Below are positions 700 through 59,797 of a stretch of DNA of 64,000 nucleotides, in pieces. A program made the position numbers and the translations under genes. The notes beneath the pieces were generated by a model. It did not search any database and was not told the DNA's origin. It worked only from the letters and a program-made list of their open reading frames with translations. Within the stretch, counting starts at the first letter, position 1. Every line of letters begins with the position of its first letter. Origin of the DNA: Enoplolaimus lenunculus (lineage: Eukaryota). Where the stretch lies: contig JASANG010002792.1 in NCBI GenBank assembly GCA_030248215.1, positions 124,001 to 188,000 on the forward strand, read 5' to 3'.

Positions 700-810
700 A
701 TTGGCCCATGTATACAGCAGGGTCGGAACCGCAGTATAAGCATATTTTTATGCCTAAGCCTAAGCCTAAGCCTAAGCCTAAGCAAAAAAGTTAGTCTAAA
801 GCTTAAACAG
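700..810. repeat. Dispersed repeat carrying (GCCTAA)5 / (TTAGGC)n tract
   Basis: GCCTAA x5 at 752-781 with flanks 'cagtataagcatatt' and 'ttagtctaaagctt'. The same flanks recur at about 3090-3185 and, reversed, at 8700-8860 and 42365-42560. Looser copies at about 2360, 3400-3640, 9455-9570, 36390. Confidence 0.7.
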
Positions 811-11800: not shown

Positions 11801-13058
11801 CGAGTTATGAAAATCATCTTATCTTTGACCACAAGGGAGCAATCGGAACCAAATTTTACGGAGCGGGAGCTAAAGCGAACATAGGTAAAATGACGTTCAA
11901 TCTGCTAATTATCAAATATCTGTATATATTGTTAAACCTTTCGGTTTTCTGTTTATTTTCTACGAAATTGGGGGTAACACGATTTTTCTTCGCCTCCGAT
12001 TCCATTTCCAGTACATTTTGCCGTTTTCCCCTGCGGTATCGCCGTACAGACAGTTCATACTTTCTGCAGATTTTAAAAGTTATCGAGTAACGTTGAATTT
12101 CATTAAATACCGTCAAGCAGGGTGCAACCGGAATTACAATTTACCGGAACCGGAATTTGAAAATTTTACCGGAACCGGAAAGTGAAAAATGCATTTCACC
12201 AAAAATTTCATTTTAATCTTATTTTTTGCTCTATTATTTGTGAAATAACCTTAGTCGAACATAGGTATTTATTTTATCTGTTGTATTTTAGATTTTCATC
12301 ATCGAATGAAGTGAAATCTACCATTAATGGCTTATATTCGGAGTACAAGTGGCTTTCAAAAGAGATTTTTAAAAATTAGCAAAGTTAAGAAAACGGCCAA
12401 ATTATAATACCGGAATTTTTAAATCCGGTAAAAATTTACCGGAACCGGAAGGTGAAAAAATGCCGGAACCGGAATTCCGGTTGCACCCTGCCGTCAAGGT
12501 CTATGACACGTTCTTTTTTTGGCTGGTTGGCGACCGAAGGAACTAAAAATTTTAAAAGATTCAAATAATTTCTAGTAGCGGAAGTTGCGACGCATCGAGG
12601 TTAACTTCTATACGCCGATTTGTATGCGACCGTCTTGCACAGTAGAAGGTGAACGGTAATTATATATTTGCAGTTTGATTTAACTGTAAAATAGTTCAGA
12701 TTTACGAATCAACTATTTTACCAAAGATATAAAAGACAGTCACAATTGAAGTTTTAATTAAAAGCTCTTTTGCTTTAATATTTTGTAGATATTTAATCCG
12801 ACACGATTCTTGGATCCGGTAGATGGCGTAGTGATGAAACCGCCGTACTGGCTACCGTTTGGCTGTGGAAAACGCGTTTGCATGGGTGAAGCACTAGCGA
12901 AAAATGATTTGTTCCTGATTGTTACGGAACTACTTCAAAAGTGCCAGTTTTTGCCGGCGCCAGGTCAAACATACTCGCGGCGTATTGAAATGTCTGATTT
13001 CAATATTTTGCCGGAAGACAACAATCCGGTCATTGTGAAACGACGAGAAAATTATTAG
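2869..13058 (+). CDS. Cytochrome P450, clan 2 (CYP1/CYP17/CYP2-like), 11 exons, about 510 aa
   Basis: Exons with GT-AG boundaries and consistent phase: 2869-3019, 3903-4085, 4618-4711, 5404-5559, 6314-6438, 7409-7510, 8073-8198, 9005-9102, 10888-11029, 11603-11688, 12789-13058 (1533 nt). Motifs: N-terminal TM anchor + PPGPFPLP, I-helix FEAGVETT, K-helix ETLR, FNPTRF, heme motif [10 protein letters not shown]. Confidence 0.95.
7514..7748. mobile_element. TA-flanked MITE (Tc1/mariner-like), TIR CTGTAGTGACCCGAATAAGAGGGG
   Basis: TIRs at both ends (right one imperfect), flanked by TA on both sides. Family copies at 37626-38072, 41104-41484 and a reversed end at about 11463. Confidence 0.7.
12118..12490. 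mobile_element. hAT-like MITE, TIR CAGGGTGCAACCGGAATT
   Basis: Perfect TIRs and 8-bp TSD CCGTCAAG (12110-12117 / 12491-12498). Lies in P450 intron 10. Confidence 0.9.
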
Positions 13059-28823: not shown

Positions 28824-30466
28824 ATGTCGGACTTTGATCGTGTAACGTTGGTGAAACACGAAGTATTCGTTTATCGCATTCCGCCGCTTCAAGCGAACAA
28901 AGCGATTCGTGCCGCTGATTGGAAACTCGATGCTCCGGATTGGATCGGACGTATGCGTGTGATTGTTAACGGCGTTCATCTGGTGCTCAAGTTAGAAGAT
29001 AAGGGCTCTGGTAAGCTTTCCTTATTTTTGGATAAATAGAGTATATATTCTTATTAGTAAACTAGCAAAAACGTACCAATTTGGCCAGAGCTGGAATTTG
29101 ATAAAACCGTACTGTACCATAGTAATTTTATTTACTGTCGCTTCAGAATCTGTCAGCCGAAAAGTGCTCTTATATGGCGTGTTGCACAACGTTTTATATG
29201 AAGCGATTGTGTCGTATCGTGTTATTAAGTGTTGAAGCGATTGTGTCGTAAACGTGTTATTAAGTGCTCTTCGTTGCTGAGATTTCTTCTAAAATTAATA
29301 CTGAATTATTTTTAGTGGGGATGGAACAACCGAATTTCCGACTCCGTTAAAACAATAATTAATATATACATACTACACTAGAGTAAATTAAATATGACTT
29401 TGCCGGGGTCGAATATTGAAATATATGGGTTTAGTATTTTTATTATCCGGTTGCACCATCATTTCTATGCTTGTACGGGATTTTAAATTATTGTGTGGTT
29501 GATTTTATAGGAGAATTATTTGCAAAAGCTCCGATTGACAAATATCCAGGTGTCGCAATACAGCCAGTTGTCGATTCGTCACGCTATTTTGTTGTTCGCC
29601 TTCAAGATGATAACGGCCGTAATGCGTTTATTGGCCTGGGATTTGCGGATCGCGGGGACGCGTTTGATTTAAACGTTGCACTTCAAGATCATTTTAAAGA
29701 TGTTGCGCGCAGTGTTGCAGCTGCGAATGATTCTAATTCCGTAATCACAGATGTCACTAACCAACCGAAACTTGATTTAGCGTTTAAATCGGGACAAACT
29801 ATCAAGTTGAATATTGGTAAGATAGGAACGTTAGAAGGTACCACTGAGGGCGGTGGTACTAGTGCTGGTGCTGCAGCTGGCCGACCTCGATCCAGAGGTG
29901 CTACAGCTGGAGCAGGGGCAGCAGGTGGGCCAGTTCCGTTCCTGCCGCCCCCGCCGTCGAGTGGTAGCCGCGTGACGCCAAAATCAGGCAAGCATGTGAC
30001 TCCAGTGCTCGATCCAGGGCGGTCCCCAACGCTAAACACAAGCGATCCAGCAGAATCGTTAGCAAATTATGGTGATGCGGTGGTGAAACCTTCGCCGAAC
30101 AATCCGTTTTTGTGTGGTTCTACTTCTAATAATAATAATAATAGTAATGGACCAGTGGCTGAAAATGAAAGGGTGAACCAAAATTCCATAATGGGTCAAG
30201 GTAATACCCAACTAGGTGCTGAGCGGTATGTAGCTAACGGCGCAAATGTGGCCAATGACAATAACTCAAGCGTAAATAGTAATCCCTTTTTGGATACATC
30301 AGGGATCTCTGGAAGTGATTCTTTATCGCATGGTATTAGTGGACTTCAAGTGTCCGAAACGCGATATGATACAATGAACCAGCATGCAACGTCAGGTGGC
30401 TCTAGTAATGTAAGCAGTAGCATAGCTGAAACTGTACCCGTTGCGAATTTATTAGATCTTATGTAG
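28824..30466 (+). CDS. NECAP: Adaptin ear-binding coat-associated protein (NECAP), 2 exons
   Basis: Exons 28824-29010 and 29511-30466. PHear-domain motifs [57 protein letters not shown], followed by [18 protein letters not shown]. Confidence 0.95.
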
Positions 30467-31968: not shown

Positions 31969-32040
31969 GACTTCGTAGCTCAGTGGTTCGAGCAGCGGAC
32001 CGGTACTCCGTATATCGTGGTTCGAGCCCCACCGCATCTG
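31969..32040 (+). repeat. tRNA-derived SINE head or tRNA pseudogene
   Basis: A box TAGCTCAGTGG and B box GGTTCGAGCCC. D and anticodon stems pair, but the acceptor stem does not. Confidence 0.55.
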
Positions 32041-36300: not shown

Positions 36301-39300
36301 TGAAGAGTGTTATGGTCGAAAAAGTAAGACTAATTTGGGTCATTTTTACATTTTGTCAATCTTTTATTGCTAAGGTTTAGGCAATTGGCTTGAGCGTTTT
36401 AGGCTTAGGCATTAGGCATAGTCAGCTCTTTGGCTTAAGCTGAGTTGTTCTTCATGTAGCTTTGGCCACGGCAGAAAATCACACACATATCGATTAGCAA
36501 TATATTAACCGCTGGAAGCTGTTGTCTGGTAAAATATGAGTATCTGTGTTTTGGTTTAGCCATTCTTATTCAAGTAACGTCGTCGGCTGTGGCTTTCTCT
36601 TGTACGTTTTTTCACCGACAAACTTAAGCCTTTACGCCTAAGAATAATCCTAACCATAAGAAGAAACAGCGTAATGTCAAAGTTTATTCCTAAACCTAGT
36701 TGTTGGTACTATACGGTCTGCACGACTCCTGTTTGAAGTTTTGCCATAGTTAATGACCACGCCGAGAATCGAACCTCGGCCCTCTTGTGATCGAGCCAAG
36801 CATGCTACCACTACACTACGCGGTCATTGCAACCACTTTTTATACCGGCATATGTGCACAGGCATGGCAACATTTGCTTTACATATACCGACACTAGTCA
36901 CCACGGTGCAACTGGAATTATATATTACCGGAACCCGAGCCGAAACTGGAAACAATGCTTGTTACCGAACAATTTATTTCAAAGATATTACGCCGCTTTC
37001 CATGGGAAAATAGTTTAATTATTATAAGCGATGCGAATACTTGTGTTGCCAACATAGAAGTTAACTCAAATACGGGTTCGTAGGAATTTTGATATATACA
37101 CATGATCGTTTTTTCTTGAATTAAATCTTGAAGAAACGGTAAAGCGTTGGTCCCAAACCGTTGCCTGATATACTTATGATGAGATATTTTTTACTTTCTC
37201 TGTACACTCAAACATCATTGAAATTGAAATTCTAATTTATGAAACCCGAAAGTTGTAAGGTACACAAAAAATTGTCTTATATTCAAGAAATGTCTGAAAC
37301 TTAAGGACATATATATGTCTTGAATTTAAGACTTTTTTAAATTTTCAAAAAATTTTCAGACTTGAAAGTGTGAAATTTAAACTTTGTTTCATGAACAGCT
37401 TGGACAAATATTGTTGAAATATAAGGCAAATATTTCTGAAATGTAAGATAAATTTGTCTGAAATATAAGACAACGATTTTTCTGGAAAATGACTCCAAAA
37501 TTCGGGCTAAAACTCAACGAAATTCCCTGTTTTTACAAGCTAAGGTATGTTCAAGACGTAAACTTAGTTTGTGGGAGCCTGAGTTCAACCCGAAATTCCT
37601 TGAAATTTGAATATTTACAGCCCTACTGTAGTGACCCGAATAAGAGGGGGGACTGATATTTATTTCGCCTCACCAGAGGGTACCCCCCAGTTATTCGGTT
37701 ACGGACTGTTGTGTATTTTTAGCCACGCTCCACCACCCTTCGTGACTTATATATAATCCGGTACTGCAACTATCCGTTAAACTAAACGTTTATTTGTCTT
37801 GAGTTATAATAGCTTGAGCGATAATGCAAGGTTATGCTTGGGAATACGTTCAAAACTTAAGTATATACGCATTAAAGTTTCGGACTCAAATCATTTGGTT
37901 CTGGAGTCATTTATGTGCTACAATCAGGGATAAGTGACATTTGTGGACTCTAAATAGAGTTTAAGGACTCTATCCGATTACGGACTCTTATTAGGGATGC
38001 GGACTCCTGTTGATTGGGACTCAACATGGGGACCCCCTCTCTTATTACCCCCCTCTTATTCGAGTCACTACATCAAGCAGGGTTACGCACCGAAAGAAAA
38101 CCAACTGAAAACGGCTCTTTCGGTTTTTCCGTTTTTTCTGAAGGGTGGAAAAAACGGACCAAACGGAAAAAACCTTGAAATCTCAGCAAATCACTCGCAA
38201 AACAGCGAAAAACATCGCAAAAACCGTGAGAAATTGGATTATTTAATCCTACAGTCACCGCTAAGGCTGATTTACTGAAAGGAATCAGTGGCGAATCCAA
38301 GAAGCTCTGAAATTGGGGACCGCACGAGAAGCGAACCAAAAGCTTTATGCCATTTGCTAAACCTTTTAATACAAAATCCCGTTTGGATAATTCAGTAGGA
38401 AAATTAGTGGGATACATGCCTCTTTTAAAGCTCTAGAAAGGCTAGAGAAACACATGCTTACAGGTTCTAAATTCAACGGAACTTTACTAAAGCTACGGTG
38501 ACTCCTCAGAGACAGACGCAGGGTGAGTAGAGTGTGTCTTCTATCAACCCAGCAGTCCTACGGTGCTAAAAGTATGCTATACAAACGATTTCCTATCAAA
38601 TCGGATTTCCAGTTGCATCACTGCTACTATATACTTTTTTATTCTTAAACTGATTGCTTTATCTATTTGAGATTTTTAAGTTTCTCCTTGATGCCAAATT
38701 TATTGCCGATATATGCATCGTTTAGTTTAGAACCTAACTTCTGATTAATTTCACTTTTTATATACAAATTAAACTGCAAATCCTGTTTGAAGATTCTTTG
38801 CCGGACTCAACCCCGGAAGTTTTTGACCACCTTAGCTTGCATATGCACATTATGACACTCTGTAACGTGTGTAGCATGCTTATCATCATGCGTTATCAAA
38901 TGCTGATACTTAATAGTTTGACCCTTCTAATGTCTCTCTTCAATAGACAAATCTTCCATCATCAAAGTTTTAGCGCTTGCGGAACCATTAGCATATTTTC
39001 AATTTTTTCCGTTTTTTTGATTTTTCTAGAAACAAATGCAAAAAGTTTTTTCCGTTGAGCAAACTTTTCCGGAAAAATCCAACCCTGCTGCTAAGAATGT
39101 GAACGGTTTTTTACATGCGTAAAAATCAGAAAATTAGTTTTGAATATATAAAGACAACTGTTTTTGAAAGGAAGTAATATATATATATCTGATATTAAAT
39201 TGGCAACAGGCATTTCTTGAATATAACACATTTATGTTTTAACCATTTTAGACGCAAATTTCTGAGCTGTTTAAGGATATTGATGTCTGAAATACCCCTT

Positions 39301-42274: not shown

Positions 42275-42923
42275 CTAAAATGTAATCTAATTTACAATTA
42301 AGCCCATATTACAATCGTCAATTATTACCCATGCAAAGTAGTCAGTTTTTTCTGTGATTATAGAAGTAAGCTTAAGCTTTAGACTGTTTTTATTCGCTTG
42401 TTTAGCCTTAGCTTAGAATAAACCAATCTTACGCTCAGACTAGCTAGAATAAACTCATTCTACGCTCAGCTAGCTTAGAATAAACTTATTTCTTACGCTT
42501 AGCTTAGCTTTTAGCTTAGCTTAGAATATGCTTATAACACGTTTTCCTGTCTCTCACATTGGCCAATTTGTTTACCATATTTCAGCGGGACAGTTTCGGC
42601 ATTATATCGGGATTATTGTTAACTGGTCTGCCGGTTTTGAGTAATACGCAAAAATTTAGCGAATACACAAAAATTTGATTCAATAAATTAACCGATTTTA
42701 ATATGCACCTTAATTTAAATTAATTTTACATTTTTAGCAGTCGCTACAGTACGCATTTGAACAGCGTAGACCCCCCCCTAATGGATCGAAAAAAATTTTA
42801 ATTAATACAGTGTTTGGCCAGAGCCTACTCAGGAGTGGAGAACCAGCCGAATTTAAGGGGAACTGCCACCCATTGACTAAAATTAACTAATTTAATTTCC
42901 ATGTAACACAAAACAGTGGGCCC

Positions 42924-43230
42924 ATGTTACTCTCAGAGTGTCCCATTTACCCAAGGGACAGCAATATACACAGAATGAAATGTCTTTGCCCGGTTGGTCG
43001 GGACAGCTTCAAACGTGTTTGTATATACTGGGTCGGTCGGGGCAGCCGGGACAGCTTCGAGCCCGTATGTTTGCTGGGTCGGTCTGGACAGCCGGAACAG
43101 CTTCGAGCCCGTATTTTAGCTCGGTCGGTCTGGACAGCCCGGATAGCTTCAGGTATGGATAGATAGGACAGCACCAAACGTATGTTTTTGCTTTGTCGGT
43201 TGGGACAGCTGGGACACCGTGGACCCGGCC
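42924..43230 (+). repeat. GGGACAG-rich repeat (inverted partner at 50530-50800)
   Basis: About 47-bp units 'gggtcggtc.ggacagccgggacagcttcgagccc' preceded by GTTACTCTCAGAGTGTCCC. Confidence 0.65.
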
Positions 43231-43628
43231 CATGTATAGAACACTGGCACAAAAATATTGGTTTTATTGCGTTTTCAAGGGGCTGTCGACCCCCAAACCC
43301 CCACAAAAAGCAAATCTTTGTTTGAACAAAATTTTTTGACTTTGTCTGTAGCTTTTGTGAGAACCGCTTCGTGCGAATACTGCATTCTGACCAGGAAAGA
43401 CAAATTTAGGCTTAATAAAATTACAAAGCACTTTACTGCCTAAGGCTTCTGTAGAAAGTTGACCTACAGCTCCTGCTCCGGGAAAATTTTAGCCGGAGGT
43501 TCAGACAATTTGGGTATGCTTCAAAACAAAATTTTTTATTGACCAATGTTTTATAAACTGCGGTGCCGGCTCCGGTTTGTTTTAACCCAATTGCATTCAG
43601 GCATTAATATTTACTTTTATATTAAATA

Positions 43629-45401
43629 ATGCCTACAACCAGTGATCACGATGTCATTGGTATTGCTGGAGGCGGCAGTATTTTGTCGGAGGAGACTTCC
43701 ACCTTAACTGATCAACCACAAACCCCAATGGACACGGCAGCAATTGATCACAATCAGGATTACGACGTCGAGGGTAATAATGATGCAAATGAATTAAAAG
43801 GGGACTATGCGAACTTATTACGGTCTAGAACACTCTATGTAACTAATCTTAAATATCATGGTCTTAATAACTTAACGTGCGTAGAAGTGCTGAACGCTGT
43901 TAATAAGGTTTTCACTGTCCAGGGCGGTGAGAAGTTTAGTAATAGTGTTAAAATTATTTTCCCATCCAAGGACATTGCATCTATAGCAGCGGGTAAATCA
44001 ATTAAAATTGGGGACTCGGAGGTAATTCTAGAAATTCCTCGCGACGCAACATTGCAATCTCCTTTTATCGTTCGAACTTTACATCTATATGGCGTCCCCT
44101 TTGAAGTTCCGGATAAAGCGCTACAGTCTTTCTTAGCTGCTCAAAATATTCAGTGCTTGCAACCTGGTCGTTTCATCAAGCATCGAGGAAGTGAATACAT
44201 CTCAAGTGGTCGAAGTTTCTTAGTCCAGATCCGCCGCGACTATAAAATACCTCCTCGGCTCGAATGGTGCGATCCTCATTTTAGGCGCGGATATATTATA
44301 ATTCGGGCATGGTACCCGGGTATGGGTCGGTATTGCAAATCATGTTATAAATTTGGACATGAACAATTAGATTGTGTTGATTTTCCTGCTTTGAACAATA
44401 CTGAGGTGGACACGAACTCAGCTAAACAACAACAAGAAGAGCAAGAACCCAAACAACAGTCACAACAACAGCAGCAACAGAAACAACAAATACAACAACA
44501 ACAATTACAACAACAACGGCAACAAATGAAAGCCGGGATAGACAATGATCGCAGCAAGTTAAATACAAACAAGCAGTTTCTTGATATCAGTAACTTTATT
44601 ATGGGGTTAATCAAAAATATTCAGTCCAGCATTAACAATGATATTATTGTGAGAGAACCATTAGCTTTAGTCATCAATGGAAAGCTGGATTTGACTAAAC
44701 TGCCAGAATCCGGGAAATCTTTTCTCAATTTTTCTGCTTGGTATAGATATTTGCATTTGAAACGATCGATGTCTCCGCCATTTCACCCTGAGGGTGAAGA
44801 CGTTAAAACATTTTTTGATTCGAAACATCCAAGCAATTATCGTCTCTCGAATTTCCATGTTGACAATCCAGTATCTGTTTGGGGCGAGTCTTTCTCATCT
44901 CCTGAAAAATTTGTCGCAGTGTGGAAGGCGAGATTCAGTGGTCGCAAAGATATCGAAGAGAAGGTTTGGGGAACAGACGATCCTAAATCAATAAAATTTT
45001 TACATAGTCAGATAGTTTGGCCGGGTACAACGTTACATTATTTGTGTATCGTTTTCGAATTAATTTATACGATTTGTTTTGCACGAGCACAACAATGTGA
45101 TGTGATTGGGCGCACACTATTGTCAACAGAGGGTCTATTGGTTGAGACTGTACCTGGGCCGGGGCCTTGGAGCTGCGGCCGTGGACACTCTGATAATCGA
45201 GCTCAAAATAGAGTTACCTGGCGTCCTGGCAGTTTAAACTTAAATGGTGACTGTCAGACTCTTGTGCGAGAACACATTATGTTACGAAAGGTGAGAACAG
45301 TAAGCACATCGTCTGATATATCCTCTCGCGTTACAGGTGTTAAGCGGTTGTATGAAGAGTCAGATGTGATTAGTGGCAAAAAGCCAAACATTGCAATGTG
45401 A
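43629..45401 (+). CDS. LINE ORF1 (590 aa): RRM-like region, CCHC zinc knuckle, polyQ linker, C-terminal NADAR/YbiA-like domain
   Basis: RTLYVTNL and RTLHLYGVPFEVPD (RRM-like strands typical of Tx1 ORF1). CKSCYKFGHEQLDC at 44334-44375. Q-rich tract 44427-44525. aa about 395-550 carry LSNF, SPEK..VWK, DPKSIK, LLST, LVE, WSCG, NLNG..LVRE. Confidence 0.85.
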   Translation: MPTTSDHDVIGIAGGGSILSEETSTLTDQPQTPMDTAAIDHNQDYDVEGNNDANELKGDYANLLRSRTLYVTNLKYHGLNNLTCVEVLNAVNKVFTVQGGEKFSNSVKIIFPSKDIASIAAGKSIKIGDSEVILEIPRDATLQSPFIVRTLHLYGVPFEVPDKALQSFLAAQNIQCLQPGRFIKHRGSEYISSGRSFLVQIRRDYKIPPRLEWCDPHFRRGYIIIRAWYPGMGRYCKSCYKFGHEQLDCVDFPALNNTEVDTNSAKQQQEEQEPKQQSQQQQQQKQQIQQQQLQQQRQQMKAGIDNDRSKLNTNKQFLDISNFIMGLIKNIQSSINNDIIVREPLALVINGKLDLTKLPESGKSFLNFSAWYRYLHLKRSMSPPFHPEGEDVKTFFDSKHPSNYRLSNFHVDNPVSVWGESFSSPEKFVAVWKARFSGRKDIEEKVWGTDDPKSIKFLHSQIVWPGTTLHYLCIVFELIYTICFARAQQCDVIGRTLLSTEGLLVETVPGPGPWSCGRGHSDNRAQNRVTWRPGSLNLNGDCQTLVREHIMLRKVRTVSTSSDISSRVTGVKRLYEESDVISGKKPNIAM

Positions 45402-45454
45402 ACGTGCATTTTTTTTGTTTTACATGCCTTAAATTGATATGAAAGAGAGTCAAT

Positions 45455-48400
45455 ATGGATCTGCCAAATTTCTTTTCTTTTTCCAGTTTAAATTGCAGAT
45501 CCATTAAGCATTTTCGAAAAGTGTCGATAGTTTTTGAAAGGATAAAAGATTTGGATTTGATTTGTCTGCAAGAGACACATTTTAAAAACAATTGGGATGC
45601 AGAGATTTTTGATAGAATTTTCTCACGCAATTTTAAAATATTTCACAGTTTCGCAAGCGAGGAGAATAGTAAAACAGGGGTAACGGTCCTTATAAATAGG
45701 ACAGCTCCTGTTGGTCAAATTGAAAACATTTTTAATATTCAGGGTAGGGCGGTCACGATTGCTTTTAGTATTGGCTCTCTTTCTTTTTTCTTAATTGGTA
45801 TTTATGCTCCCGCGAACGGCGAGCAGCGAGTAGTTTTTTTCAACCAGCTGATGCAACAAGTGCAAAATTCGTTTTGGTTTGATTATAAATGTGTTATTAT
45901 GTTGGGTGATTTTAACTTAGTTGAGGACCCGGTTTTGGACCGATCACGGCCGTCATATGATCAGCAGAAAGGCCTGAGAGAGCTTTATTGTTTGAAGGAA
46001 CTGTTGGTGATATCTGATGTTTTTAGGGAGACACATCCAAATAAAAACGACTTTTTTACTTTTCTTTCAGACATTCATGGAAGTCAGTCTCGTATAGATC
46101 GGATTTATATGCCGGCTTTTTTACAACCGGGCGCTTTGTGTACCGCTCGCGCAGTGAACAAGACAGATCATAGGTTGTTTAGAGTTAAGATTCGCTTACC
46201 TAATTTAAAGAGAGGTAAAGGATACTATAAGATGAATACAATGCTTTTGGGTGAAGTCGGCGTACAGACCTTTGTTTTAACGCGGCTCAAACATTTAATG
46301 AACATTTCCACAGGGTTTTCTATGATGTGGGAAGTATTTAAGGCTGATGTTAAAACCTTCTTTGTAAAGTTGGGTAAAAATAAAGCTAAGGAACGCGACA
46401 TGTTGAGGAAATCATTAGAGAGCCAAGTTATTAATGTACAAATGCTGATAGGACAGTATCCAAACAATCCGAATCTCAGATCGGGTCTTAAAAAGCTAAA
46501 AAATGAAATCGAATTATTGAATGCATTTTATATTGCTTCTTGCAGGCATAATACGTACTACGGTAGTGAGGTAAATGACAACGCCTCTTTAGCAACAGTC
46601 AAGTCTCTTCAACGTAAGAACTGGGAAGCCAGGCATATAAGCTCGATCGAAAGGTCTGATGGCACGTTAGTAACAGACTCAGATGCAGTTCTAGGTGAAA
46701 TTACTGAGCAGTATTCCAACGTATTCAGATCGGAAGGGATAAGCGGAGAAGATCTCACTTTTTTTCTGGCACAAAATGGTCTTTCCAAGTTGAGTGAGGT
46801 GGAAAAAAATACTTTAGAGGGACCCATTACGTCAGTTGAAATAGCGAGCGCTATTAAATCTATGCAGGGTAAAAAGACGCCGGGATACGATGGTATTCCT
46901 GTTGAATTCTATTGGCTGTTTTGTGGAATATTATCTGAATTTTTGTGTAAAATGTATAACGCGTTCTTGGATGATCTTAAGCTCAATTCCTCCGCATATG
47001 ATGGTGTTATTACCCTATTATATAAAGGGAATGGAAGGAAAACGTGTCGCGATAATTGGCGGCCAATTACGTTGCTGAATATAGATTATAAGATTTTTAC
47101 GAAAGTTTTGGCAAAAAGATTAGAATCGGTCATGAAATCTTTAGTCCACCCGGATCAGACAAGCTCGGTTCCCGACAGAATTATCCAAGACAGTGTTGCA
47201 CATGTCATGTCTGTTATTCATTATGCCAATGAAAGCAACGCAAAGGCGTTGCTGCTATCAGTTGATCACAAAGCCGCTTTTGATTTGGTGGAGTGGTCAT
47301 TTATTTTTGAGACACTTAGGGTCATGAATTTTGGCGAAAACTTTTTAAACATGATCAAATGTATTTATAAACCCGGATGTACAAGATCATCTGTTATAGT
47401 TAATGGTTTTAAGTCAGAATTTTTTCATGTTTTCCGTGGAATTCGACAAGGGTGTCCCTTATCGCCGTCATTATATGTCATAACAGCGGAAGTGGTAGCT
47501 CATTATCTTCGAATAACTTCAAGAATTTCGGGGATACCACTATACGGCATTAACACCCGAGTGACTAAGTTTGCCGACGACACTAATATTTTTCTAAGTA
47601 GGATTTCAGATATAAGTGTGGTTTTTGATGTTTTTGAAAAATTTCAAAAGGCCTCTGGCAGCCGACTAAAGGAAACTAAAACACAGATACTATTAATGGG
47701 CGATCTAAGGAACGCACTTGTACCCCATCAATATGCACGCTTTATTGTTGAAAGAGTGAAAATTTATGGCCTTTGGTTTGATTCAAAGGGACTCGATGTT
47801 CCTGAAAATTGGATAAAGTGCTATGAAGCAATTGCAAGTCTTGAACAGCGAATACCGCCCCGAGGTATCTCTGTTTTTGGAAAAATCCATCTTGTTCACA
47901 TTTATTTTTTGTGTATGTTTAATTACTTGATAAAATTAGTAACACCCCCTGAGCAACTAGTGAAGGAAACTATCAATGTGGTTTATAAGTGGTTGTGGTA
48001 CCCGTCTACCGCTAGTATTATTAGAAGGGATATCCTGTTTTTACAACCTAGTCACGGCGGGATAAATTTCCCAAATATTTTTGTCAGACTGAAAGTGAAT
48101 CGTTTAATGTTTTATATTCGAATATTAAGAGGTACCGAAGTTGTGAGTTGGAAGAGATGTTTCGAACATTTCTTTCGGCAAGTTCAGTTTTCGACTAAAC
48201 GTCAACTGAGACGCATTGATGTACCGGAGTTATATAAAGAGATACGGATTGCAATGATTGAGTCATCTTTTAAAATGGATGGAAATTTTTGTTGGTTTTT
48301 TGGCGAAAAGTTATCCTTAAAAACAGTGTCGGCAAATAAATTGTATAAAATGTGGATACACGCTGTGTATAAGGTACTCATGCATCCTAAACATGTTTTT

Positions 48401-48991
48401 TGGCGAGACGAGCTAGGAGTTGAACCTATTTTTGTCGAGCGATCATGGATATGGGCAAAAGCGAAATATGTTGACGGCTCTGCGCGAGACGTCCATTTTA
48501 GGTTAAGACACAAGTCATTGTATACTAATCACCGCACTAGTCATTTTACAGATGGGACAAATATATGTTCGTTTTGTTATTTGGATGGAATTGAAGTGCG
48601 GGAGGATAATGTTCATGTGTTTATTTATTGTTTGCGGGCGCAAGAAATTAGTTTTTTCATTACTCCCGTTTTGCAACAGGTAGCTGGAGTAAATGAAATA
48701 ACGATTTCGGATTTAATTTTGGGACGAAATATTCACGACCCATTAAAGAGAATAGCTTTTAATTTCATCGTCCAACATGCACAATTGGCAATATGGAGTG
48801 CTCGATGTAAACTCGAGTTTAACAATGAAAATGTCTGTGTTGTTGATGTTTTTCAGGAAAATGTTTATAGAAATTTGTGCAAACTTAAGCTGTATCTAAA
48901 AGAAGAATGTTTTTTTAAGGTTTTTGGAACAATAACCCGACAGAATGATAGCATGCTGGGTTTTCGAATGTCTTTTTCTCAGCGTACCTGA
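45455..48991 (+). CDS. LINE ORF2 (1178 aa): APE endonuclease + reverse transcriptase + C-terminal CCHC zinc finger
   Basis: Endonuclease motifs SLNCR, LQETH, IYAP, GDFN, SRIDRIY, TDH. RT motifs KTPGYDG, WRPITLLNIDYK, DHKAAFD, GIRQGCPLSP, FADD. C-terminal CSFC...HVFIYC. Confidence 0.97.
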   Translation: MDLPNFFSFSSLNCRSIKHFRKVSIVFERIKDLDLICLQETHFKNNWDAEIFDRIFSRNFKIFHSFASEENSKTGVTVLINRTAPVGQIENIFNIQGRAVTIAFSIGSLSFFLIGIYAPANGEQRVVFFNQLMQQVQNSFWFDYKCVIMLGDFNLVEDPVLDRSRPSYDQQKGLRELYCLKELLVISDVFRETHPNKNDFFTFLSDIHGSQSRIDRIYMPAFLQPGALCTARAVNKTDHRLFRVKIRLPNLKRGKGYYKMNTMLLGEVGVQTFVLTRLKHLMNISTGFSMMWEVFKADVKTFFVKLGKNKAKERDMLRKSLESQVINVQMLIGQYPNNPNLRSGLKKLKNEIELLNAFYIASCRHNTYYGSEVNDNASLATVKSLQRKNWEARHISSIERSDGTLVTDSDAVLGEITEQYSNVFRSEGISGEDLTFFLAQNGLSKLSEVEKNTLEGPITSVEIASAIKSMQGKKTPGYDGIPVEFYWLFCGILSEFLCKMYNAFLDDLKLNSSAYDGVITLLYKGNGRKTCRDNWRPITLLNIDYKIFTKVLAKRLESVMKSLVHPDQTSSVPDRIIQDSVAHVMSVIHYANESNAKALLLSVDHKAAFDLVEWSFIFETLRVMNFGENFLNMIKCIYKPGCTRSSVIVNGFKSEFFHVFRGIRQGCPLSPSLYVITAEVVAHYLRITSRISGIPLYGINTRVTKFADDTNIFLSRISDISVVFDVFEKFQKASGSRLKETKTQILLMGDLRNALVPHQYARFIVERVKIYGLWFDSKGLDVPENWIKCYEAIASLEQRIPPRGISVFGKIHLVHIYFLCMFNYLIKLVTPPEQLVKETINVVYKWLWYPSTASIIRRDILFLQPSHGGINFPNIFVRLKVNRLMFYIRILRGTEVVSWKRCFEHFFRQVQFSTKRQLRRIDVPELYKEIRIAMIESSFKMDGNFCWFFGEKLSLKTVSANKLYKMWIHAVYKVLMHPKHVFWRDELGVEPIFVERSWIWAKAKYVDGSARDVHFRLRHKSLYTNHRTSHFTDGTNICSFCYLDGIEVREDNVHVFIYCLRAQEISFFITPVLQQVAGVNEITISDLILGRNIHDPLKRIAFNFIVQHAQLAIWSARCKLEFNNENVCVVDVFQENVYRNLCKLKLYLKEECFFKVFGTITRQNDSMLGFRMSFSQRT

Positions 48992-49300
48992 TTTGTAGTT
49001 TGTTTTGAAACTAGGTTTCTTGTGTGCTTTTTAACATATTTGCTCTGAATAATATCCTTGCAAGCAGAGTAGAATAATGGGTAATTTTCAAGGACCTTTG
49101 TTATGTTATGATAATATGTTGTTGCCTTCTTTGGTTTATATAATTGCTTTCGTTGATGTAAATGTGGTTTATCCTTTTAATAAAACCCGGGGTGTTCGGC
49201 AAACGAGCGCTTCGGACTTAAACTTAAAACTCTTCACCTCTGCTTGCGCACTGCATACTGTTTACCTTCGCTACATCGTTGCAACCAGGAATGATAGACC

Positions 49301-50302
49301 ACTTTATTTAATGCCACTGGTGGTGGTATTGGGTTTCCAGATATTAAAATTAGAGTTAAAGTTAACAGATTAATGTGTTATGTAAAGTGCTTGTGCTATA
49401 AGGAAATGCTTAGCTGGAGAAGATCCTTTTTCCACTTCTTTAGGAAGGTAGAATTTTTGACAAGCAGACAAGTAAGGCGGATCGCAATTCCTACGTTCTA
49501 TAAAGAAATTCGCTATTCGATTATCGAGTCCAGTTTCCGACAAGAGGGAGACTTTTGCTGGGTTTTCGGGGAAAAATATTACATGTTAAAATTGAAGTCA
49601 AAATTAGTTTATAAACTATGGATACACAATTATTGTAGCAAAAACATGATTTTGCAAATTTGTACTGGGAACGGCATTTAGGATCAGATACATTGTATGT
49701 CAAAGAATCATGGAAATGGGCAAAGGCGAAGTATGTGGACGGTAAAGTACGGGACTTGCACTATAAACTAAGACAAAACCGTCTTTATATAAATAATAGA
49801 TTATCATATTTTACTACAACATCAAAGTATTGTTGTTACTGCCATATACAAGGGATAGATGTAGTTGAGGACATCCCGCAGGTTTTTATTTATTGTTCCC
49901 GTGCGTATAATGAAATTACTCCAATTTTGCAACGGTTACTAGGTTGTCATCAGATTAATCTGTCCGATTTAATATTGGGTAAAAGTAATACATCTACACA
50001 AAATTATCAATGTTTTAATTTCTTAATTCAGTATATGCAGTTCGCTCTGTGGAAATCGCGATGCTTATTAAATTTTCATAATACATTAGAGAACCCAATG
50101 TCCATCTTTAGGAAAAATGTTTTTAGATCACTTTGTAGACTTAAAGTGCGACTGAAAGGGCCCGTTTTTGATCGTGTTTTCGGGATCATTACGGAAAACT
50201 CGAATGCGTCGCCAGGCTTTAAATTGGTAATATAGGCGGAACGTTTGCCGGAAAAATTTTAAGCGAAATTGTTTTTAGAAGTTAATGCCGGATAAGAATA
50301 AA
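49301..50302 (+). mobile_element. 5'-truncated, frameshifted 3' fragment of a related Tx1-type LINE
   Basis: Translates to GGIGFPDIKIRVKVNRLM..SWRRSFFHFFR..WAKAKYVDGKVRDLHYKLR..CCYC..ISDLILG-like segments, homologous to but clearly diverged from the ORF2 C-terminus upstream. Frameshift near 49650, stop at 50235, AATAAA at about 50297. Confidence 0.88.
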
Positions 50303-50529: not shown

Positions 50530-50800
50530 TTATACTTTGCAAAAATTTAAGCTGTCCCGGCAATCCCGGCCGACCCAGCAAAAACACATGCTCGATGCTG
50601 TCCCGGCCAACCCACCAAAAATAGGCGAGATGCTGTTTCGGTCGACCCAGCGAAAACACAGGCTCAAAGCTGTCTTGGTTGTCCCGCCCGACCCTGCAAA
50701 GCATAGGCTCGAAGCTGTCACTCCGCCCCAGCTCAAATATGTGGGCAGGAGTGCGGTCCTGTTGCTGTACCGCGGGAAACGGGACGCCTCTCAGAGTAAC
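50530..50800 (-). repeat. GGGACAG-rich repeat, inverted relative to 42924-43230
   Basis: Reverse complement begins GTTACTCTGAGAGGCGTCCC...ACAGCAA and has the same 'gacagcttcgagcc' units. Confidence 0.65.
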
Positions 50801-51327: not shown

Positions 51328-52880
51328 GACAGTGGGACAGCGGGACAGTAGGACAGTGAGTGGGACAGTAGGGCAGTGCGACAGCGGGACAGTAGGACAG
51401 TGAGTGGGACAGTAGGACAGTGAGTGGGACAGTAGGACAGCGGTACAATAGGACAGCGGTACAATAGGACAGCGGGACAGTGGGACGGTAGGATAGCGGG
51501 ACAGTAGGACAGTGGGACAGCAAGACAGTGGGACAGCAGGACAGTGAGACAGCGGGACAGTGGAACGGTAGGACAGCTAGACAGTAGGACAGTGGGACAG
51601 CAATACAGTAGGACAGCGGAACAGTAGGACAGCAAGACAGTGGGACAGTAGGACAGCAGGACAGTGGGACAGCGAGACAGTGGGACAGCGTGGCAGTGGG
51701 ACGGTAGGACAGTGGGACAGCAAGACAGTGGAACAACAGGACAGTGGGACAGTAGGACAGCGGGACAGAGACAGTAGGACAGTGAGACAACGGGACAGTG
51801 GGAAAGTGTAGCGGGACAGTAGGACAGTGGGACAGTAGGACAGCGGGACAGTAGGACAGCGGGACAGTAGGACAGCGGGACAGTAGGACACTGAGACAAC
51901 GGGACAGTGGGACAGTGAAACTGTGGAACAGCGGGACAATGGGACAGCCGGGACAGTGGGACAACGGGACAGCGGGGACAATGGGGCAGTGAGACAACGG
52001 GACAGTGGGACAACGGGACAGTGGGACAGTAGGACAGTGGGACAGTTGGACAAGCGGGACAGGGGGATAGCGGGACGGTAGGACAGTAGGACAACGGGAC
52101 AGTGGGACAGCCGGACAGTGGGACAGTAGGATAGTGGGACGGTGGGACAGTAGGACAGTGGGACAACGGGACAGTCGGACAGTGGGACAGTAGGATAGCG
52201 GGACAACGGGACAGTGGGACAGCCGGACAGTGGGACAACGGGACAGTGGGACAGTAGGACAACGGGACAGTGGGACAGCCGGACAGTAGGATAGTGGGAC
52301 GGTGGGACAATGGGACAACGGGACAGTGGGACAGTAGGATAGCGGGACAGCCGGGGCAGTGGGACAACGGGACTGTGAGACAGCGGGACAATGGGACAGC
52401 TGGGACAATGGGACAGTGAGACAATGAGACAATGGGGCAGTGGGAGAACGGAACAGTGGGACAACGGGACAGTGGGACAGTAGGATAGTGGGACGGTGGG
52501 ACAACGGGACAGTGGGACAGTAGGACAGTGGGACAGTAGGATAGCGGGACAGCCGAGGCAGTGGGACAACGGGACTGTGGGACAGCAGGACAATGGGACA
52601 GCTGGGACAACGGGACAGTGGGACAATGGGACAGTGAGACAATGGGGCAGTGGGACCACGGAACAGTGGGACAACTGGACAATGGGACAGTGGGACAACG
52701 GGACCGCTGGGATACTCGGGGCAGCCGGGATAGCTGGGACAGCCCAACAGCTGAGACAGCTGGGACAGGGGGGACAGCCGGAACAATAAGACAGCGGAAC
52801 AACAGGGCAATGGGACAGCCTTGACAGCAGAACAGCCCGGACGAATGGGACGGCGGGACAAATGGGACGGCAGATGTTAC
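51328..52880. repeat. Minisatellite, 8-9-bp unit (G/A)GGACAGT and variants
   Basis: About 1.55 kb of GGGACAGT/AGGACAGT/GGGACAAC units. A short inverted tract of the same unit lies at 54420-54546. Confidence 0.95.
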
Positions 52881-55218
52881 TATTAGGCCCAGCCGGGAGA
52901 CAATGTTTCCATGTTTCCACTTACACATTCCCTCTGCCTAAACCAAGCTTAACGTTGTCCTAACGCCGGTACTTTTTTACTTCCACACATAACTGAATGT
53001 GAAGGTGGAAGTCCTCAGTTATTTTACATATAAAATATGCACTAACACAAAAAAGTAGTGTGGTAGACAGACTTTTTCACTTTGAGGCTGCCGGTCTCCT
53101 GAACGGCTGCGATTGCAAGCGACCCAAAAAGTAACATGGGCCTCTGCTGTCCAGATTAAAGGAACTCTACATAAACGCAACAATTAGAGCCCTACTGTGC
53201 AACAACTTACAAAGTGTCAGTTGACAGGTGCCCCAATAAACACATGTAATCCCCCGCGAGAAGTTCAAAGTATATAAACTTTGAAAAGGTCAAAATTTTT
53301 CTGTTGTTTGAATCGGATTAAACTAAAAATGTTTACAATTTAAGCTTTGTACTTTGGTGACGCTGGCAAGATTGTTGAATTTAATCTCTTTTGTTCGGTT
53401 GCCGACTAAAATAAAACTTTTAAAATTTGGCCAAATAACAAAAATTCTAATCATTTTGACACAATGCGGTCTTATTACAGAGGAATTCAATTCGGAACAC
53501 GGAACCACCAGGCATTGATCATGTATCAGGTATAAAACCCAAAATTTTGTGTGGAGGTTTGCGACTTTAATTTGGTTTCACTTTTTACTCGCGTCAGTTT
53601 TGACTCGATAGCTAGTGCTCAGCTAAAACAAGTTCCGAGCAAAATTATAGGCTTTAGACCTGCGGTTTGGTTTCGAATTAAGTTGTTACATTAACGCTTA
53701 ACCTTCAATTCTAGTTCAACTTTAGCTCGCACAAGTTGTTAGGAAGCGTGTAGAATCAACAGCACAGCCAGACAAGTCAAGGTCAAAACTATTTTGTTCA
53801 CATTTAGCTGCATTTTCAATTTAAAACAGAAGACTTCACCTTCGAAATTTTTACAGAATACAACCTCCCGTTACTAAATCCTGGTTATGTTCGTAGCAAA
53901 TATGTCATGGGGTAAGAAACTTCTTCGTCACTCCGTACCACGGAATGTTTTAGTGGGCATTACCATAAGCATCCCGCTGCCTTACCAGCTTTCGGGCGTG
54001 ATGGACGTAATGCAGGTTTACAACGTTAATTGTTAATTAACCTGGCCAATTAAGTACTATTTGATTTGCCAATTTTTGTTTGTACCTTGATTTTTGATCG
54101 CAATGCTAAAGTCCCATTAAATCGTGCGTATTTATGCAACGAGAACTAGCAGCTGCAATTTGCACCAGTTTTTTGATCGAAAAACTTGCACTGAAACTTA
54201 CCACTGAAACTTCTGTGCGTAAACAAGGAAGGGCATAATGAAATGTACGAGTCTTGCAGATAAAAAATTTTAGCACAAGACTATCTGTTATGGGTTATGC
54301 AACCCACTTGAAGCGACATCAACCGAATTTTCGTGAGCACGGCATGCATAATGCACCAGAAAGCGGGAGTTCGAGAGGTTAAAAGATAGAGCCTGAGCAC
54401 TGAAACAGTAAACGGCCCCCGCTGTCCTACTGTCCCGATGTCCTACTATCCATCTGTTCCGCTGTCCCACTGTGCCGCTGTGCCGCTATCCCACTGTCCC
54501 ACTGTCCCACTGTCCCGGGACATCTGGACGGCCCTCAGTGTAACATGAGCCAGAAGCTCAAATATATAAAAAGTTCCAAAATCCGACCATTTTTGGGCAA
54601 ATAACGATTAAAGGGTGGGATAGCCGATCACTCAGGCAAAGAATGACTTTTGTCAAATTTTTCATTTCTTTCCGAAAAATGGAAAAATTCTTTTTTTTTC
54701 ATAACTTTTTCCGGAAAAAAGCGCCCCTGGTAGCTATATATTTCCGCAGGAAAAATGGAAAACGAGACAATATTTTTTGTTGACATTGATTTTATCTGGA
54801 GGCTGTCACCCCCCTGCACCCCCCGCATTTGGAAGAAGCCCCTCGCACTAAGCAATCTTGCTAATCAATCCACAAATAACAACAACAAAGTTTAATAATC
54901 TTCGCGTATGTACAAACAGGAATAGCAAATACTGTTTTGCGTCACTATTGCTGTCCCACACGAAAACGGGACGCCCCTGAAAATAACGGGCCAAATCACA
55001 GCCATACCGCTCGGAATTGGTAGACAAAAGAATGGAAAGAAAACACATAGCTAATATTAAGCGGAGGCTTAGGGTGAGCATCGACGTGACACTGAGTGAA
55101 CGCCATGGCCCTACTCAACAACATAATACTCCCAAGTGGGTAAGCTCGACCCACTAGTAAGGCAAGGCGTATTTGTAATCTGACTAGCAGTGTTAGTCTG
55201 GGTGGGAAGTTAACCGGG

Positions 55219-55962
55219 ATGTGATAAGTTGGGTAGGCTAGGGTACGACGGTTTTTAGTTCTGAGTTAGCAACTGCAAATGAGGCACGTTCCCTGGAGGT
55301 TTCGAACTCGGTCCACAGATTATCAGTCCCAGCGCGCTATCCACTGAGCCACGCCGCCTCACAATCAACTGCTGAGTTTTTCTGTGTTTTATGCCTTATA
55401 AGAAACTCAACATTATACACATTTATCTTGGTTCTTCCATGTTTTTACTGATGCTGCATATGAAGGCACTACTTATGCAGGTGTGATTTTACCGATGTAC
55501 AGCATCAGCATGAGATTATTACTTGTCTCTATGCATCCGCATGCCATATCCCCCGGTTTCTGCAAGGTCGTCCCTTGACCGCCAACTTGTATATTTTTGG
55601 TTCTATCGCGGAAGTTTGCCATTACGGTCCCATCGGGGTCGCCATGTGATAAGTTGGGAGGCTAGTGTACGACAGTTTTTCAGTTTTTCGTTCTGAATTC
55701 TCAGCAGCTGAAAATGAGGCACGTTCCCAGGAGGTTTCGAACTTGGTCGACAGATTATCAGTCCAGAGGACTTACTGCTGAGCCACGCAGCCTCACAATA
55801 AACTGCTGAGTTTTCTGTTTTTATGCCTTTCATCATTATACACATGTATCTTGGTTCTTCCATGTTTTACTGCTTCATATAGAGGCACTACATAATTAGC
55901 AGTGATTTTACCGATGTACAGCATCAGCATGAGGTTATTACTTCTCTCTATACATCCGCATG
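55219..55962 (-). repeat. Two diverged direct copies (about 320 bp) of a tRNA-headed SINE-like unit
   Basis: 55219-55543 aligns with 55644-55962. Minus strand of 55281-55360 has A box TGGCTCAGTGG and B box GAGTTCGAAACC. Confidence 0.7.
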
Positions 55963-57419: not shown

Positions 57420-59797
57420 ATGCCGTTGACCAGGCACCTGCGTGGGTTTTGTAACAAGAGATCAAATCTCGAACTGTTCTCTAGCGAAAGTTATTTGCGT
57501 TTGGAACGTAAAGCGCATTCACAGTGCCAACAAAAATCATATCACCTTGTTTCTTATATACGGGATCGCATAAGGGCTACAGGACCGATTACGGTATCAG
57601 AGTTTATGTCTTCAGCGCTTGGAGCACCTGAATCAGGTACTTATATACCAGCTAAGCTTATGAATTACGCTTAGTTTGACTTTTGAATGTTTTAGTTTTC
57701 ATTAATCTTGTTCGGTTTTGTTTACAATACTTTTCGAAAAACAAATATTATTGGTAAGGTTTGCATAGAGATTCTTCCATTAATTGGTTATATGGTTTCA
57801 GGATACTACTCAAAAGAGCGTACATCAAAGATGCGGAATATTTTGGGCAAATCTGGTGATTTTGTAACGTCACCTGAGTTATCTCAAATGTTTGGCGAGC
57901 TGGTTGGCATATTTGTGGTTCATGCGGTCCGCAACTTTCTTGGTCATCGTGACAGTTGGAGATTAACGGAACTCGGGCCTGGATCTGGAGAATTAATGGT
58001 GGATATTCTCAATACAATGAAATCACTTCACGTACCGCCCTCTGATGTTGACGTAGGTAAATGCTTATATATGATATGTCCCGGGGCCAGGATTTTATCC
58101 GGGGTCGGGGCGAGCAAAATACAATAAACATCAAATTTTATGTACCTTTTGCGTAATTATGTACCTGGGAGCACGGTGCCGTTTTATCGTATCGCATCAT
58201 GCGACATTTTATTTATACTCCCATGTTGTGAAGTTACTGATACTGTGTTTGTTATTCTGCCGTTAATTAACTGTTTTTGACTTGTTTTCGCGAAAGTTGA
58301 TGATGAAATAGCTGAAAATTCGCTTAAACCTTTTTACCAAGTTTTCTAAAAAGTCCAACAGTAATTTGGTGATGAAAATTATTTCAAATTCCATGTTTCT
58401 GCAAAATAATTCAATTCCTGTTGCGGTATAATTTACTTCCTCTTGGAACCATATAAACTTGAGTAGTGTTTTGCCAGATAAGCAGTTTCAAATCAATTTT
58501 GTTTCGCAGCATTGCAAATCAGTATAGTGATGTACTTAAACTCTGATATAAATCGGCCGGATACGTACTGGCGATTTACGGTTGTTGTCCCGAATAACGT
58601 TAAGTTGTTTTTTACAAAACGACAATATGTTAAAAAATATTGCTGCTATCGCATTTCCGGTTATTGTAGCATCCAGATAATTGTATTTCATTAAACCATA
58701 CATACTTATACACGACTTAAATACTAACGCCACTGCACAAATTTAGATGCTATATCCGGTTAACATCCGTTATTCGGTAAATTGCTATCGGTCACACCCC
58801 GCTTGTTATTACCCAGTGTTTTGAATTATGACTGAACAAAAAATTTGGTCTATTTTAGGTTAGTTTGGTTGATATCAGCAAACACTTTTGTCGTGTTCAA
58901 AGTGGAAAGCTGCTTAAACCGACAGATGCTTGGAAAACAGTGCCTGGTGCGACGTCAGGTCCTTCTTTAGATGTGAAATTTGATTCTCGCATAAACAACT
59001 ACAAACTTATGTGGCATTCCACGCTAGAACAAGTGCCGAACGACCGTCTGACATTGTTCATTGCTAATGAATTTTTCGATGCACTGCCGATTCATAAGTT
59101 TCGTCGTATTGCCGAACGCGGATGGCATGAAGTGCTTATTGACAATGCAACTTGTTCACGAGATACTTCTGCATACAGTAAACAAGATCACGAATTTAAA
59201 TTTGTGCTCTCGTCTGCGCCAACCATTGCGCAACAGACTTATTTAACTGACTCTGTATTGAACGTTTGTGGCGCAGATAATATCTTGTGTCGCGATATTG
59301 AAATATCACCCGTTGGTGCAGCTATTGTAGAAGCGATTGCTTTGAGGATTAAACGCCATGGAGGAGTTGCAATATTGGTGGATTACGGTTACGATGCCAG
59401 CGATTGCCGCGTGTTTCAAAGTGGCCGCCCGGTTGGTGATACGCTGCGTGGTTTTAAATCTCATTCAGTGGTCGACAATGAATTGAGTGATCTTGGGCAT
59501 ACAGACCTAACCGCAGATGTTAATTTTGGTTATTTAAAGTTTATTGCTGAAAAACACGCGTTAGTGTTGGGGCCGATATGCCAGAACGAATTTTTGACGA
59601 ATCTTGGCATACAGGTTAGGCGCGATGCATTGTTAGCGAAAGCGCGAACGGATAACCAGCGGCGTTATATTGAACGGTGCTATGAAATTCTTATGGATGA
59701 ATCGGAAATGGGTCATCGATTTAAAGCAATGGCGATTGTTCCACGCACCATTGGGCCCTATGTTGAAGTCAATCCACTAGCAGGATTTATGAAGTAG
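57420..59797 (+). CDS. NDUFAF7: Mitochondrial protein arginine methyltransferase NDUFAF7 (MidA), 3 exons, about 468 aa
   Basis: Exons 57420-57636, 57802-58052, 58859-59797. Motifs GPITVSEFM, GYY, GDFVTSPELSQMFGE, ELGPGSG, ANEFFDALP, DYG, DLTADVNF, MGHRFK. Confidence 0.95.

What the first reader, a model, noticed from the sequence alone, without database searches (positions are those of the whole stretch)
44811..45278. LINE retrotransposon ORF1 carries a NADAR (YbiA/DUF1768)-like domain
Seen in sequence: after the RRM-like region, CCHC knuckle and polyQ tract, ORF1 aa about 395-550 reads FF..LSNF..PVSVWGESFSSPEKF..WKARF..I...DDPKSIK..RAQQ..LLST..LVE..PWSCG..W..GSLNLNG..LVREH. This follows the NADAR consensus in order and spacing (FSNF, F.S.EH..KA, P..K, KF.Q, LL.T, LVE..D..WG.G, G.N.LG..L..RE). 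Established knowledge: NADAR proteins include the YbiA riboflavin-intermediate N-glycosidase and the DarT1 antitoxins that remove ADP-ribose from guanine in DNA, and they occur in phages and some viruses. Accessory domains I know in LINE ORF1 are esterase and PHD; I know of no NADAR example. Inference: the element may package an ADP-ribose eraser or reader in its RNP, countering PARP/ART-based restriction or managing ADP-ribosylation at the integration nick, analogous to viral macrodomains.
Basis: partly seen in the sequence, partly recalled or inferred. Interest (0 to 1): 0.92.

Follow-up and report, generated by a model that had tools for sequence, protein, structure and literature searches.

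The report
LINE ORF1 with remodelled NADAR domain
An intact jumping gene in a eukaryote genome carries, at the end of its RNA-coating protein, a conserved domain predicted to have the fold of NADAR enzymes, which likely strips ADP-ribose marks from the element's RNA or DNA; this kind of fusion was already noted in print in 2025 and its function is untested.

Summary
Window 43629-45401 (+) is a 590-aa LINE ORF1 (tandem RRM-like, one CCHC, polyQ) ending in a NADAR domain at aa 395-550, just upstream of an open APE-RT ORF2. Pfam NADAR is matched nearly end to end, though under the curated cut-off. 50 of 52 relatives are NADARs. The model (pLDDT 95.7) matches 8BAU at Z 18.5. It is a family trait: other full-length ORF1s share the architecture, and 5 of 80 metagenome LINE loci carry NADAR upstream of APE-RT. 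It is not new in kind: NADAR in ORF1 of oyster Tx1 LINEs is in print (PMC12477816), and this scan noted it before in at least 4 other genomes. Specific here: in this lineage the catalytic Glu/Lys/Glu and a Trp are kept throughout (Lys or Arg), while an otherwise conserved pocket Asp is lost in 18 of 18 sequences. Most likely an N-glycosidase of altered specificity carried in the RNP (about 45%); a binder is the main rival. The counter-PARP idea is untested and partly contradicted by a 2026 preprint.

The parts
43629..45401 (+). ORF1, 590 aa, type I-like (RRM-RRM-CCHC) with C-terminal NADAR
43815..44324 (+). tandem RRM-like region, about aa 63-232 (limits approximate)
   Evidence: profile of 5 ORF1s hits nucleolin RRMs, E 3.5e-4; no Pfam RRM hit for this protein alone
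44334..44375 (+). single CCHC zinc knuckle C236-C239-H244-C249
   Evidence: invariant in 5 of 5 ORF1s aligned
44425..44525 (+). polyQ / (AAC)n tract in the linker; not seen in the homologues aligned
44811..45278 (+). NADAR domain, aa 395-550; E426, K433, E506, W514 kept; S460, Y471, V475, P511 stand where 8BAU has R79, W89, R93, D130
   Evidence: residue roles from PMC11543638
45342..45386 (+). basic tail KR-X10-KK, resembling a bipartite nuclear localisation signal (inferred; pattern recalled); similar tails in P0002, P0003, P0004, P0006
45455..48991 (+). ORF2, 1178 aa from the first ATG: APE endonuclease, reverse transcriptase (FADD), C-terminal C..C/H....C knuckle; no stop or frameshift
48992..49186 (+). 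probable 3' UTR ending at AATAAAAC; the exact 3' end and the 5' end are not fixed; no target-site duplication found
49298..50235 (+). 5'-truncated ORF2 end of a related LINE, in two frames, 44-55% aa identity to the main ORF2; a separate insertion

Best explanation
This is an intact L1/Tx1-group LINE whose RNA-coating ORF1 protein ends in a conserved domain with the predicted NADAR fold, which likely acts inside the element's RNP as an N-glycosidase that removes ADP-ribose from bases of the element's RNA or of single-stranded DNA during insertion. Shown here: the architecture, its persistence across a diverged lineage, and retention of the Glu/Lys/Glu positions. Predicted: the fold. From established knowledge: ORF1p coats the RNA through RRM and CCHC, and all NADARs tested in the papers read remove guanine-ADPr. 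Inferred: that this lineage is still catalytic, that the lost pocket residues shift its substrate, and that a host or environmental base-modifying transferase (pierisin/CARP-1-like or unknown) is the pressure.
For: E43 position is E in 16 of 16, K50 is K or R in 16 of 16, E125 is E in 18 of 18 and W133 is W in 18 of 18 lineage sequences that cover them (positions mapped through; roles from PMC11543638 passages). The domain is about as conserved as RRM2 and far more than the linker (against P0004: 52/156, 40/88 and 10/88). 7 of the 9 ORF1 differences listed between the window and three public runs are synonymous (only 40 of 199 differences were shown). All eight NADARs tested in PMC12945103 section 2.4, from four subfamilies, remove G-ADPr. 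CARP-1-type transferases occur in bivalves, cnidarians, sponges and other bilaterians. Animal RNA viruses embed NADAR in polyproteins, largely exclusive with Macro domains.
Against: No activity was measured. The D130 position is never Asp in the lineage (0 of 18, against 31 of 39 outside it); R79 is R in 2 of 17 and R93 in 0 of 17; W89 is Tyr in 11 of 17. R93 is also variable outside the lineage (16 of 39). These residues hold the pyrophosphate in 8BAU, and the SNA-3 paper mutated the Asp/Trp homologues as residues critical for YbiA. This copy also has RAQQ for KF.Q. A NADAR does not remove PARP15-made guanine-N1-ADPr. No host transferase was identified, as no genome is held. 30 of the LINE loci with at least 1.5 kb upstream have no NADAR hit, so it is dispensable for the group.
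Confidence: 0.45

Rival explanations
1. The domain is a kept but non-catalytic or weakly catalytic module that binds ADP-ribose, a nucleotide, RNA or a partner protein and helps build or target the RNP.
For: Lineage-wide loss of D130 and mostly of R79/R93, and W89 to Tyr. The first NADAR of nematode SNA-3 lacks the catalytic residues in an essential RNP protein (PMC9303266). Earlier scan notes describe other LINE lineages with catalytic residues replaced (unchecked).
Against: Both Glu residues are invariant and the Lys position stays basic over sequences only 25-45% identical, which a pure binder need not keep.
Confidence: 0.28
2. The domain is an enzyme of RNA processing or clean-up (ADP-ribose derivatives from RNA repair, NAD-type caps, or other N-glycosides on the transposition intermediate) and has nothing to do with a host defence.
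For: This is the suggestion in PMC12477816. NADARs associate with RNA-repair systems and with trans-splicing. The altered pocket suggests another substrate.
Against: No such substrate is shown for a NADAR in the passages read; ordinary LINEs complete their cycle without the domain.
Confidence: 0.22
3. The domain is a neutral passenger, a one-off capture or an assembly chimera.
For: Below the Pfam gathering score; two word-indexed searches for long homologues found nothing.
Against: Same architecture in P0004, P0018, P0032 and (cut short) P0016 at 20-30% identity. NADAR ends 32 nt before the ORF2 frame in L001, a member of the same RT clade. Contigs of an independent run cover 44553-44845 with 0 and 44877-45416 with 2 differences.
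Confidence: 0.03

Closest known systems
NADAR in ORF1 of Crassostrea gigas Tx1 LINE families (Repbase), noted in PMC12477816
   Same: NADAR domain inside ORF1 of an L1/Tx1-group LINE; function unknown
   Different: Whether the oyster families belong to this RT and NADAR lineage could not be tested: Fig. S2 is a picture and Repbase is not held. The passages read give no residue analysis.
Phytophthora nicotianae NADAR (8BAU) and E. coli YbiA (2B3W)
   Same: Predicted fold (Z 18.5 and 16.1); E43, K50, E125, W133 positions kept
   Different: 16-18% identity; R79, W89, R93 and D130 positions replaced; fused to RRM-CCHC instead of free-standing
DarT1-associated NADAR antitoxin (8BAT)
   Same: Same superfamily (Z 8.4, rmsd 3.8); K456 stands at the K75/K115 position
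   Different: Weaker structural match; uses Glu (YbiA type) and not the DarG1 Asp arrangement; no partner transferase known
NADAR at the N-terminus of Pol in Ectocarpus lineage IV Gypsy elements; NADAR in animal RNA virus polyproteins
   Same: Accessory NADAR carried by a selfish RNA-based replicon
   Different: Different element class and position; the Gypsy domains are 57-58% identical to bacterial NADARs, whereas this one is far diverged
Type I LINE ORF1 (RRM upstream of CCHC), PMC4120745
   Same: Two RRM-like domains directly before a CCHC knuckle
   Different: One knuckle, not three, and a C-terminal NADAR; 'DUF1768' does not occur in that paper's main text

Membership tests
NADAR superfamily (PF08719) | profile match over the whole domain | tested here: met
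   model 2-162/163, E 5.8e-7; 50 of 52 nearest proteins are NADARs
NADAR superfamily (PF08719) | score above the Pfam gathering threshold | tested here: not met
   30.3 bits against 35.1; the close relatives P0002-P0005 pass
NADAR superfamily (PF08719) | helical core with two small beta-hairpins (YbiA fold) | tested here: met
   predicted model pLDDT 95.7; 8BAU Z 18.5, 162 aligned
active guanine-ADPr hydrolase (YbiA type) | catalytic E43, K50, E125 positions | tested here: met
   E426, K433, E506; mapped by profile alignment, not by superposed side chains
active guanine-ADPr hydrolase (YbiA type) | pyrophosphate-binding R79, W89, R93, D130, W133 | tested here: not met
   only W133 (W514) kept; S460, Y471, V475, P511
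active guanine-ADPr hydrolase (YbiA type) | measured hydrolysis | not testable with these tools
   needs a bench assay
L1/Tx1 group of non-LTR retrotransposons | two ORFs; ORF2 = APE + RT + C-terminal zinc knuckle, closest to L1 ORF2p | tested here: met
   human L1 ORF2p E 2e-79 against R2 at best 8e-10
Tx1 clade proper | RT groups with reference Tx1 elements | tested here: inconclusive
   the only TX1-named protein (P0133) lies outside the 18-row clade that holds the window RT; deeper forks weak; no curated references
Tx1 clade proper | target-site specificity (common in Tx1; recalled) | tested here: inconclusive
   no Rfam family at either end, no target-site duplication; only one locus available
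type I ORF1 | RRM immediately upstream of CCHC | tested here: met
   (RRM evidence moderate, E 3.5e-4)

The most novel reading that the evidence does not exclude
A deep, unnamed lineage of L1/Tx1-group LINEs has evolved a NADAR with a rebuilt pocket that erases a base modification not yet described, put on retrotransposon RNA or cDNA by a host transferase. The domain is traded among ORF1 types and even with an LTR-type Pol (P0019), marking a chemical anti-transposon defence in invertebrates and its counter-defence.
Probability: 0.2. Interest if true: 0.85.

Novelty: new member of a known kind. Interest (0 to 1): 0.38.

Why it matters
If the domain is an eraser, it implies that hosts attack retrotransposon nucleic acid by base ADP-ribosylation, a defence known from bacteria and phages. 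An intact, conserved element gives a direct substrate for the test, and the lineage-wide pocket change points to a different adduct. As it stands, the fusion is in print and only its function is open.

Tried and rejected
Single-sequence phmmer against the PDB gave only chance hits, and the single-sequence fold was useless. Word-indexed searches for long homologues found none, although HMMER found them, so those blanks are a limit of the method. Repeated independent captures of NADAR by LINEs looked likely from the tree, but an AU test did not reject one origin for the 27 element-linked or neighbouring domains against 24 others (p-AU 0.68; 10 tandem-repeat rows dropped), so I do not claim it. 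No RNA holder was listed. The depth cannot be read as copy number or expression, and whether the runs are DNA or cDNA stays open. No snRNA/tRNA target or target-site duplication was found. The 3' region folds no better than shuffles overall (z -1.28). No own genome is held, so no copy census or host transferase search. The YbiA mutagenesis paper was not held under the id I recalled, and a search did not list it. Literature searches for the fusion: PMC12477816 is the only relevant paper seen in the listings; 0 papers; no relevant LINE macrodomain paper; subscription journals and Repbase Reports are not covered. Complex prediction was not used, as no protein pair is claimed.

Full report
Anatomy. 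Window 43629-45401 (+) is an open frame of 590 codons; 53 bases later ORF2 runs from 45455 to 48991 without a break. ORF2 holds an APE endonuclease and a reverse transcriptase with intact motifs and a C-terminal knuckle. Its best solved relative is human L1 ORF2p (E 2e-79; R2 proteins 8e-10 or weaker). ORF1 has two RRM-like domains (a profile of 5 ORF1s hits nucleolin RRMs, E 3.5e-4), one CCHC knuckle, a polyQ tract found only in this copy among those aligned, the domain in question and a basic tail. The host is an intron-bearing eukaryote: P450, NECAP-like and Methyltransf_28 exons lie in the window (74 of 119 frames scanned).

The domain is a NADAR. Pfam PF08719 covers aa 395-550 nearly end to end at E 5.8e-7, but under the gathering score. 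A search of the domain alone against 1.84 billion proteins returned 52 hits; 50 match NADAR and 47 pass the gathering score, and the two misses are short fragments. A profile of 48 sequences (the query and 47 hits; 5 tandem-repeat proteins left out) finds only 8BAU and 2B3W in the PDB. The AlphaFold2 model built on that alignment has pLDDT 95.7 and matches 8BAU at Z 18.5 and YbiA at Z 16.1, the first unrelated row being Z 3.3. The named top matches among viral models are NADARs too, as are the Atlas feature hits (0.91). The fold check is not fully independent of the sequence search.

It is a family trait. P0004, P0018 and P0032 are full-length ORF1s of the same architecture, P0016 is cut within the NADAR, and P0003, P0010, P0025 and P0028 keep the knuckle and the NADAR; identities are 20-34%. 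The ORF2 search returned 222 proteins; 12 stand apart at 49-56% RT identity. Two of them (P0059, P0065) share source and contig length with ORF1-NADAR proteins P0010 and P0018, which suggests but does not prove the same contigs. Of 80 metagenome LINE loci, 5 carry a NADAR frame upstream of APE-RT. In L001 and L078 it ends within 90 bases of the ORF2 frame; in L026, L071 and L053 the gap is 0.9-1.6 kb. In an RT tree of 130 of 194 RT stretches (distant proteins thinned to every third), the window sits in an 18-row clade (support 99) with L001, P0059 and P0065. The other four NADAR loci fall in two other places, and 30 loci with at least 1.5 kb upstream have no NADAR. Three public runs of one organism (two samples, one study) hold the element; contigs cover 44553-44845 and 44877-45416 with 0 and 2 differences, and no listed joint skips the domain (15 of 122 joints shown). 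Seven of nine listed ORF1 differences are synonymous (40 of 199 differences shown).

Active site. Using the residues named in PMC11543638 (passages) and the profile alignment to 8BAU: E426, K433, E506 and W514 match E43, K50, E125 and W133. Across 20 lineage sequences these are E in 16 of 16, K/R in 16 of 16, E in 18 of 18 and W in 18 of 18 where covered. In contrast D130 is Asp in 0 of 18 (31 of 39 outside), R79 is Arg in 2 of 17 (27 of 39), R93 in 0 of 17 (16 of 39), and W89 is Tyr in 11 of 17. So the residues that act at the distal ribose are kept, while part of the pyrophosphate grip is rebuilt. The mapping is by profile, not by side-chain superposition. In the domain tree (61 rows, quick search; 5 short and 4 duplicate rows dropped) the lineage forms one group together with P0019 and P0021 (support 96).

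Mechanism. Established: type I ORF1 proteins bind and chaperone the transcript (PMC4120745 passages), and NADARs of all four subfamilies, including a sponge enzyme, remove guanine-ADPr, some also cytidine-ADPr, from DNA and RNA (PMC12945103 section 2.4; PMC11125620 part 2 of 6). Inferred: the domain rides on the RNP and cleans base adducts from the RNA template or single-stranded DNA during insertion (0.45). Against a PARP link: a NADAR did not remove PARP15-made guanine-N1-ADPr (bioRxiv 10.64898/2026.03.31.715305, passages); CARP-1-type transferases of invertebrates fit the known specificity better. Rivals are a binder (0.28) and RNA processing unrelated to defence (0.22). A chimera or one-off is excluded.

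Origin. NADAR sits on three ORF1 contexts (this lineage; coiled-coil plus L1-type RRM in L026, L071, P0041, P0044, P0027, judged by eye from sequence; another RRM-CCHC lineage in L078 and L053) and after RT-RNase H in P0019. One origin with later exchange or loss is not rejected (p-AU 0.68), so repeated capture is not shown.

Novelty. PMC12477816 (three passages; supplement legend and Table S1 rows) reports NADAR in Ectocarpus Gypsy Pol and in ORF1 of several oyster Tx1 families, and suggests RNA processing. It is the only relevant paper seen in the listings. This scan has 16 earlier findings with the same words in at least 4 other genomes, none close in sequence to this ORF1. The finding is therefore a new member of a known but uncharacterised kind; its own contribution is a diverged lineage with kept catalytic residues and a rebuilt pocket. 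Interest 0.38.

Noticed in passing
protein P0019, NADAR at aa 530-684: Gypsy-type RT-RNase H followed by a NADAR that groups with the window-type ORF1 NADARs; a possible domain exchange between LINE and LTR elements, in a position unlike the Ectocarpus case.
   Followed up: partly
L026 1-996, L071 2-1363, L053 384-1376: The NADAR-bearing ORF1 is 0.9-1.6 kb upstream of ORF2; L053 has an open frame in between (1418-2299). Earlier scan notes speak of three-gene LINEs; not tested here.
   Followed up: no
window 46622 and 49077: Loose ends in run X1 join onto TGGG/ATGGG in the window, as a template-switching cDNA adapter would (adapter recalled); a weak hint that X1 is cDNA and that the element is transcribed.
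   Followed up: partly
window 49187-49215: A 12-pair hairpin with G-U pairs is predicted directly after AATAAAAC, followed by short (ACTTAA)-like repeats; may be the true 3' end of the element.
   Followed up: no
window 49298-50235 and 50297: A truncated related LINE directly downstream in the same orientation; both end in AATAAAAC, which might reflect clustered insertion.
   Followed up: partly
window 752-783, 8737-8820, about 42400-42510: Interstitial TTAGGC-type repeats; 46 TTAGGC/GCCTAA against 18 TTAGGG/CCCTAA in the window. TTAGGC is the nematode telomere unit (recalled); a hint only.
   Followed up: no
window 42980-43236, 50564-50674, 51328-52781, 54418-54517: GGGACAG-rich tandem repeats (46, 37 and 8 bp units) on both sides of the element, some in opposite orientation.
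   Followed up: no
window 3863-13055, 28809-30463, 57696-59794, 31974-32034, 36754-36825, 55268-55962: Host exons of a cytochrome P450, a NECAP-like protein (DUF1681) and a Methyltransf_28 protein; two tRNA-like matches; a duplicated segment of about 430 bp.
   Followed up: no
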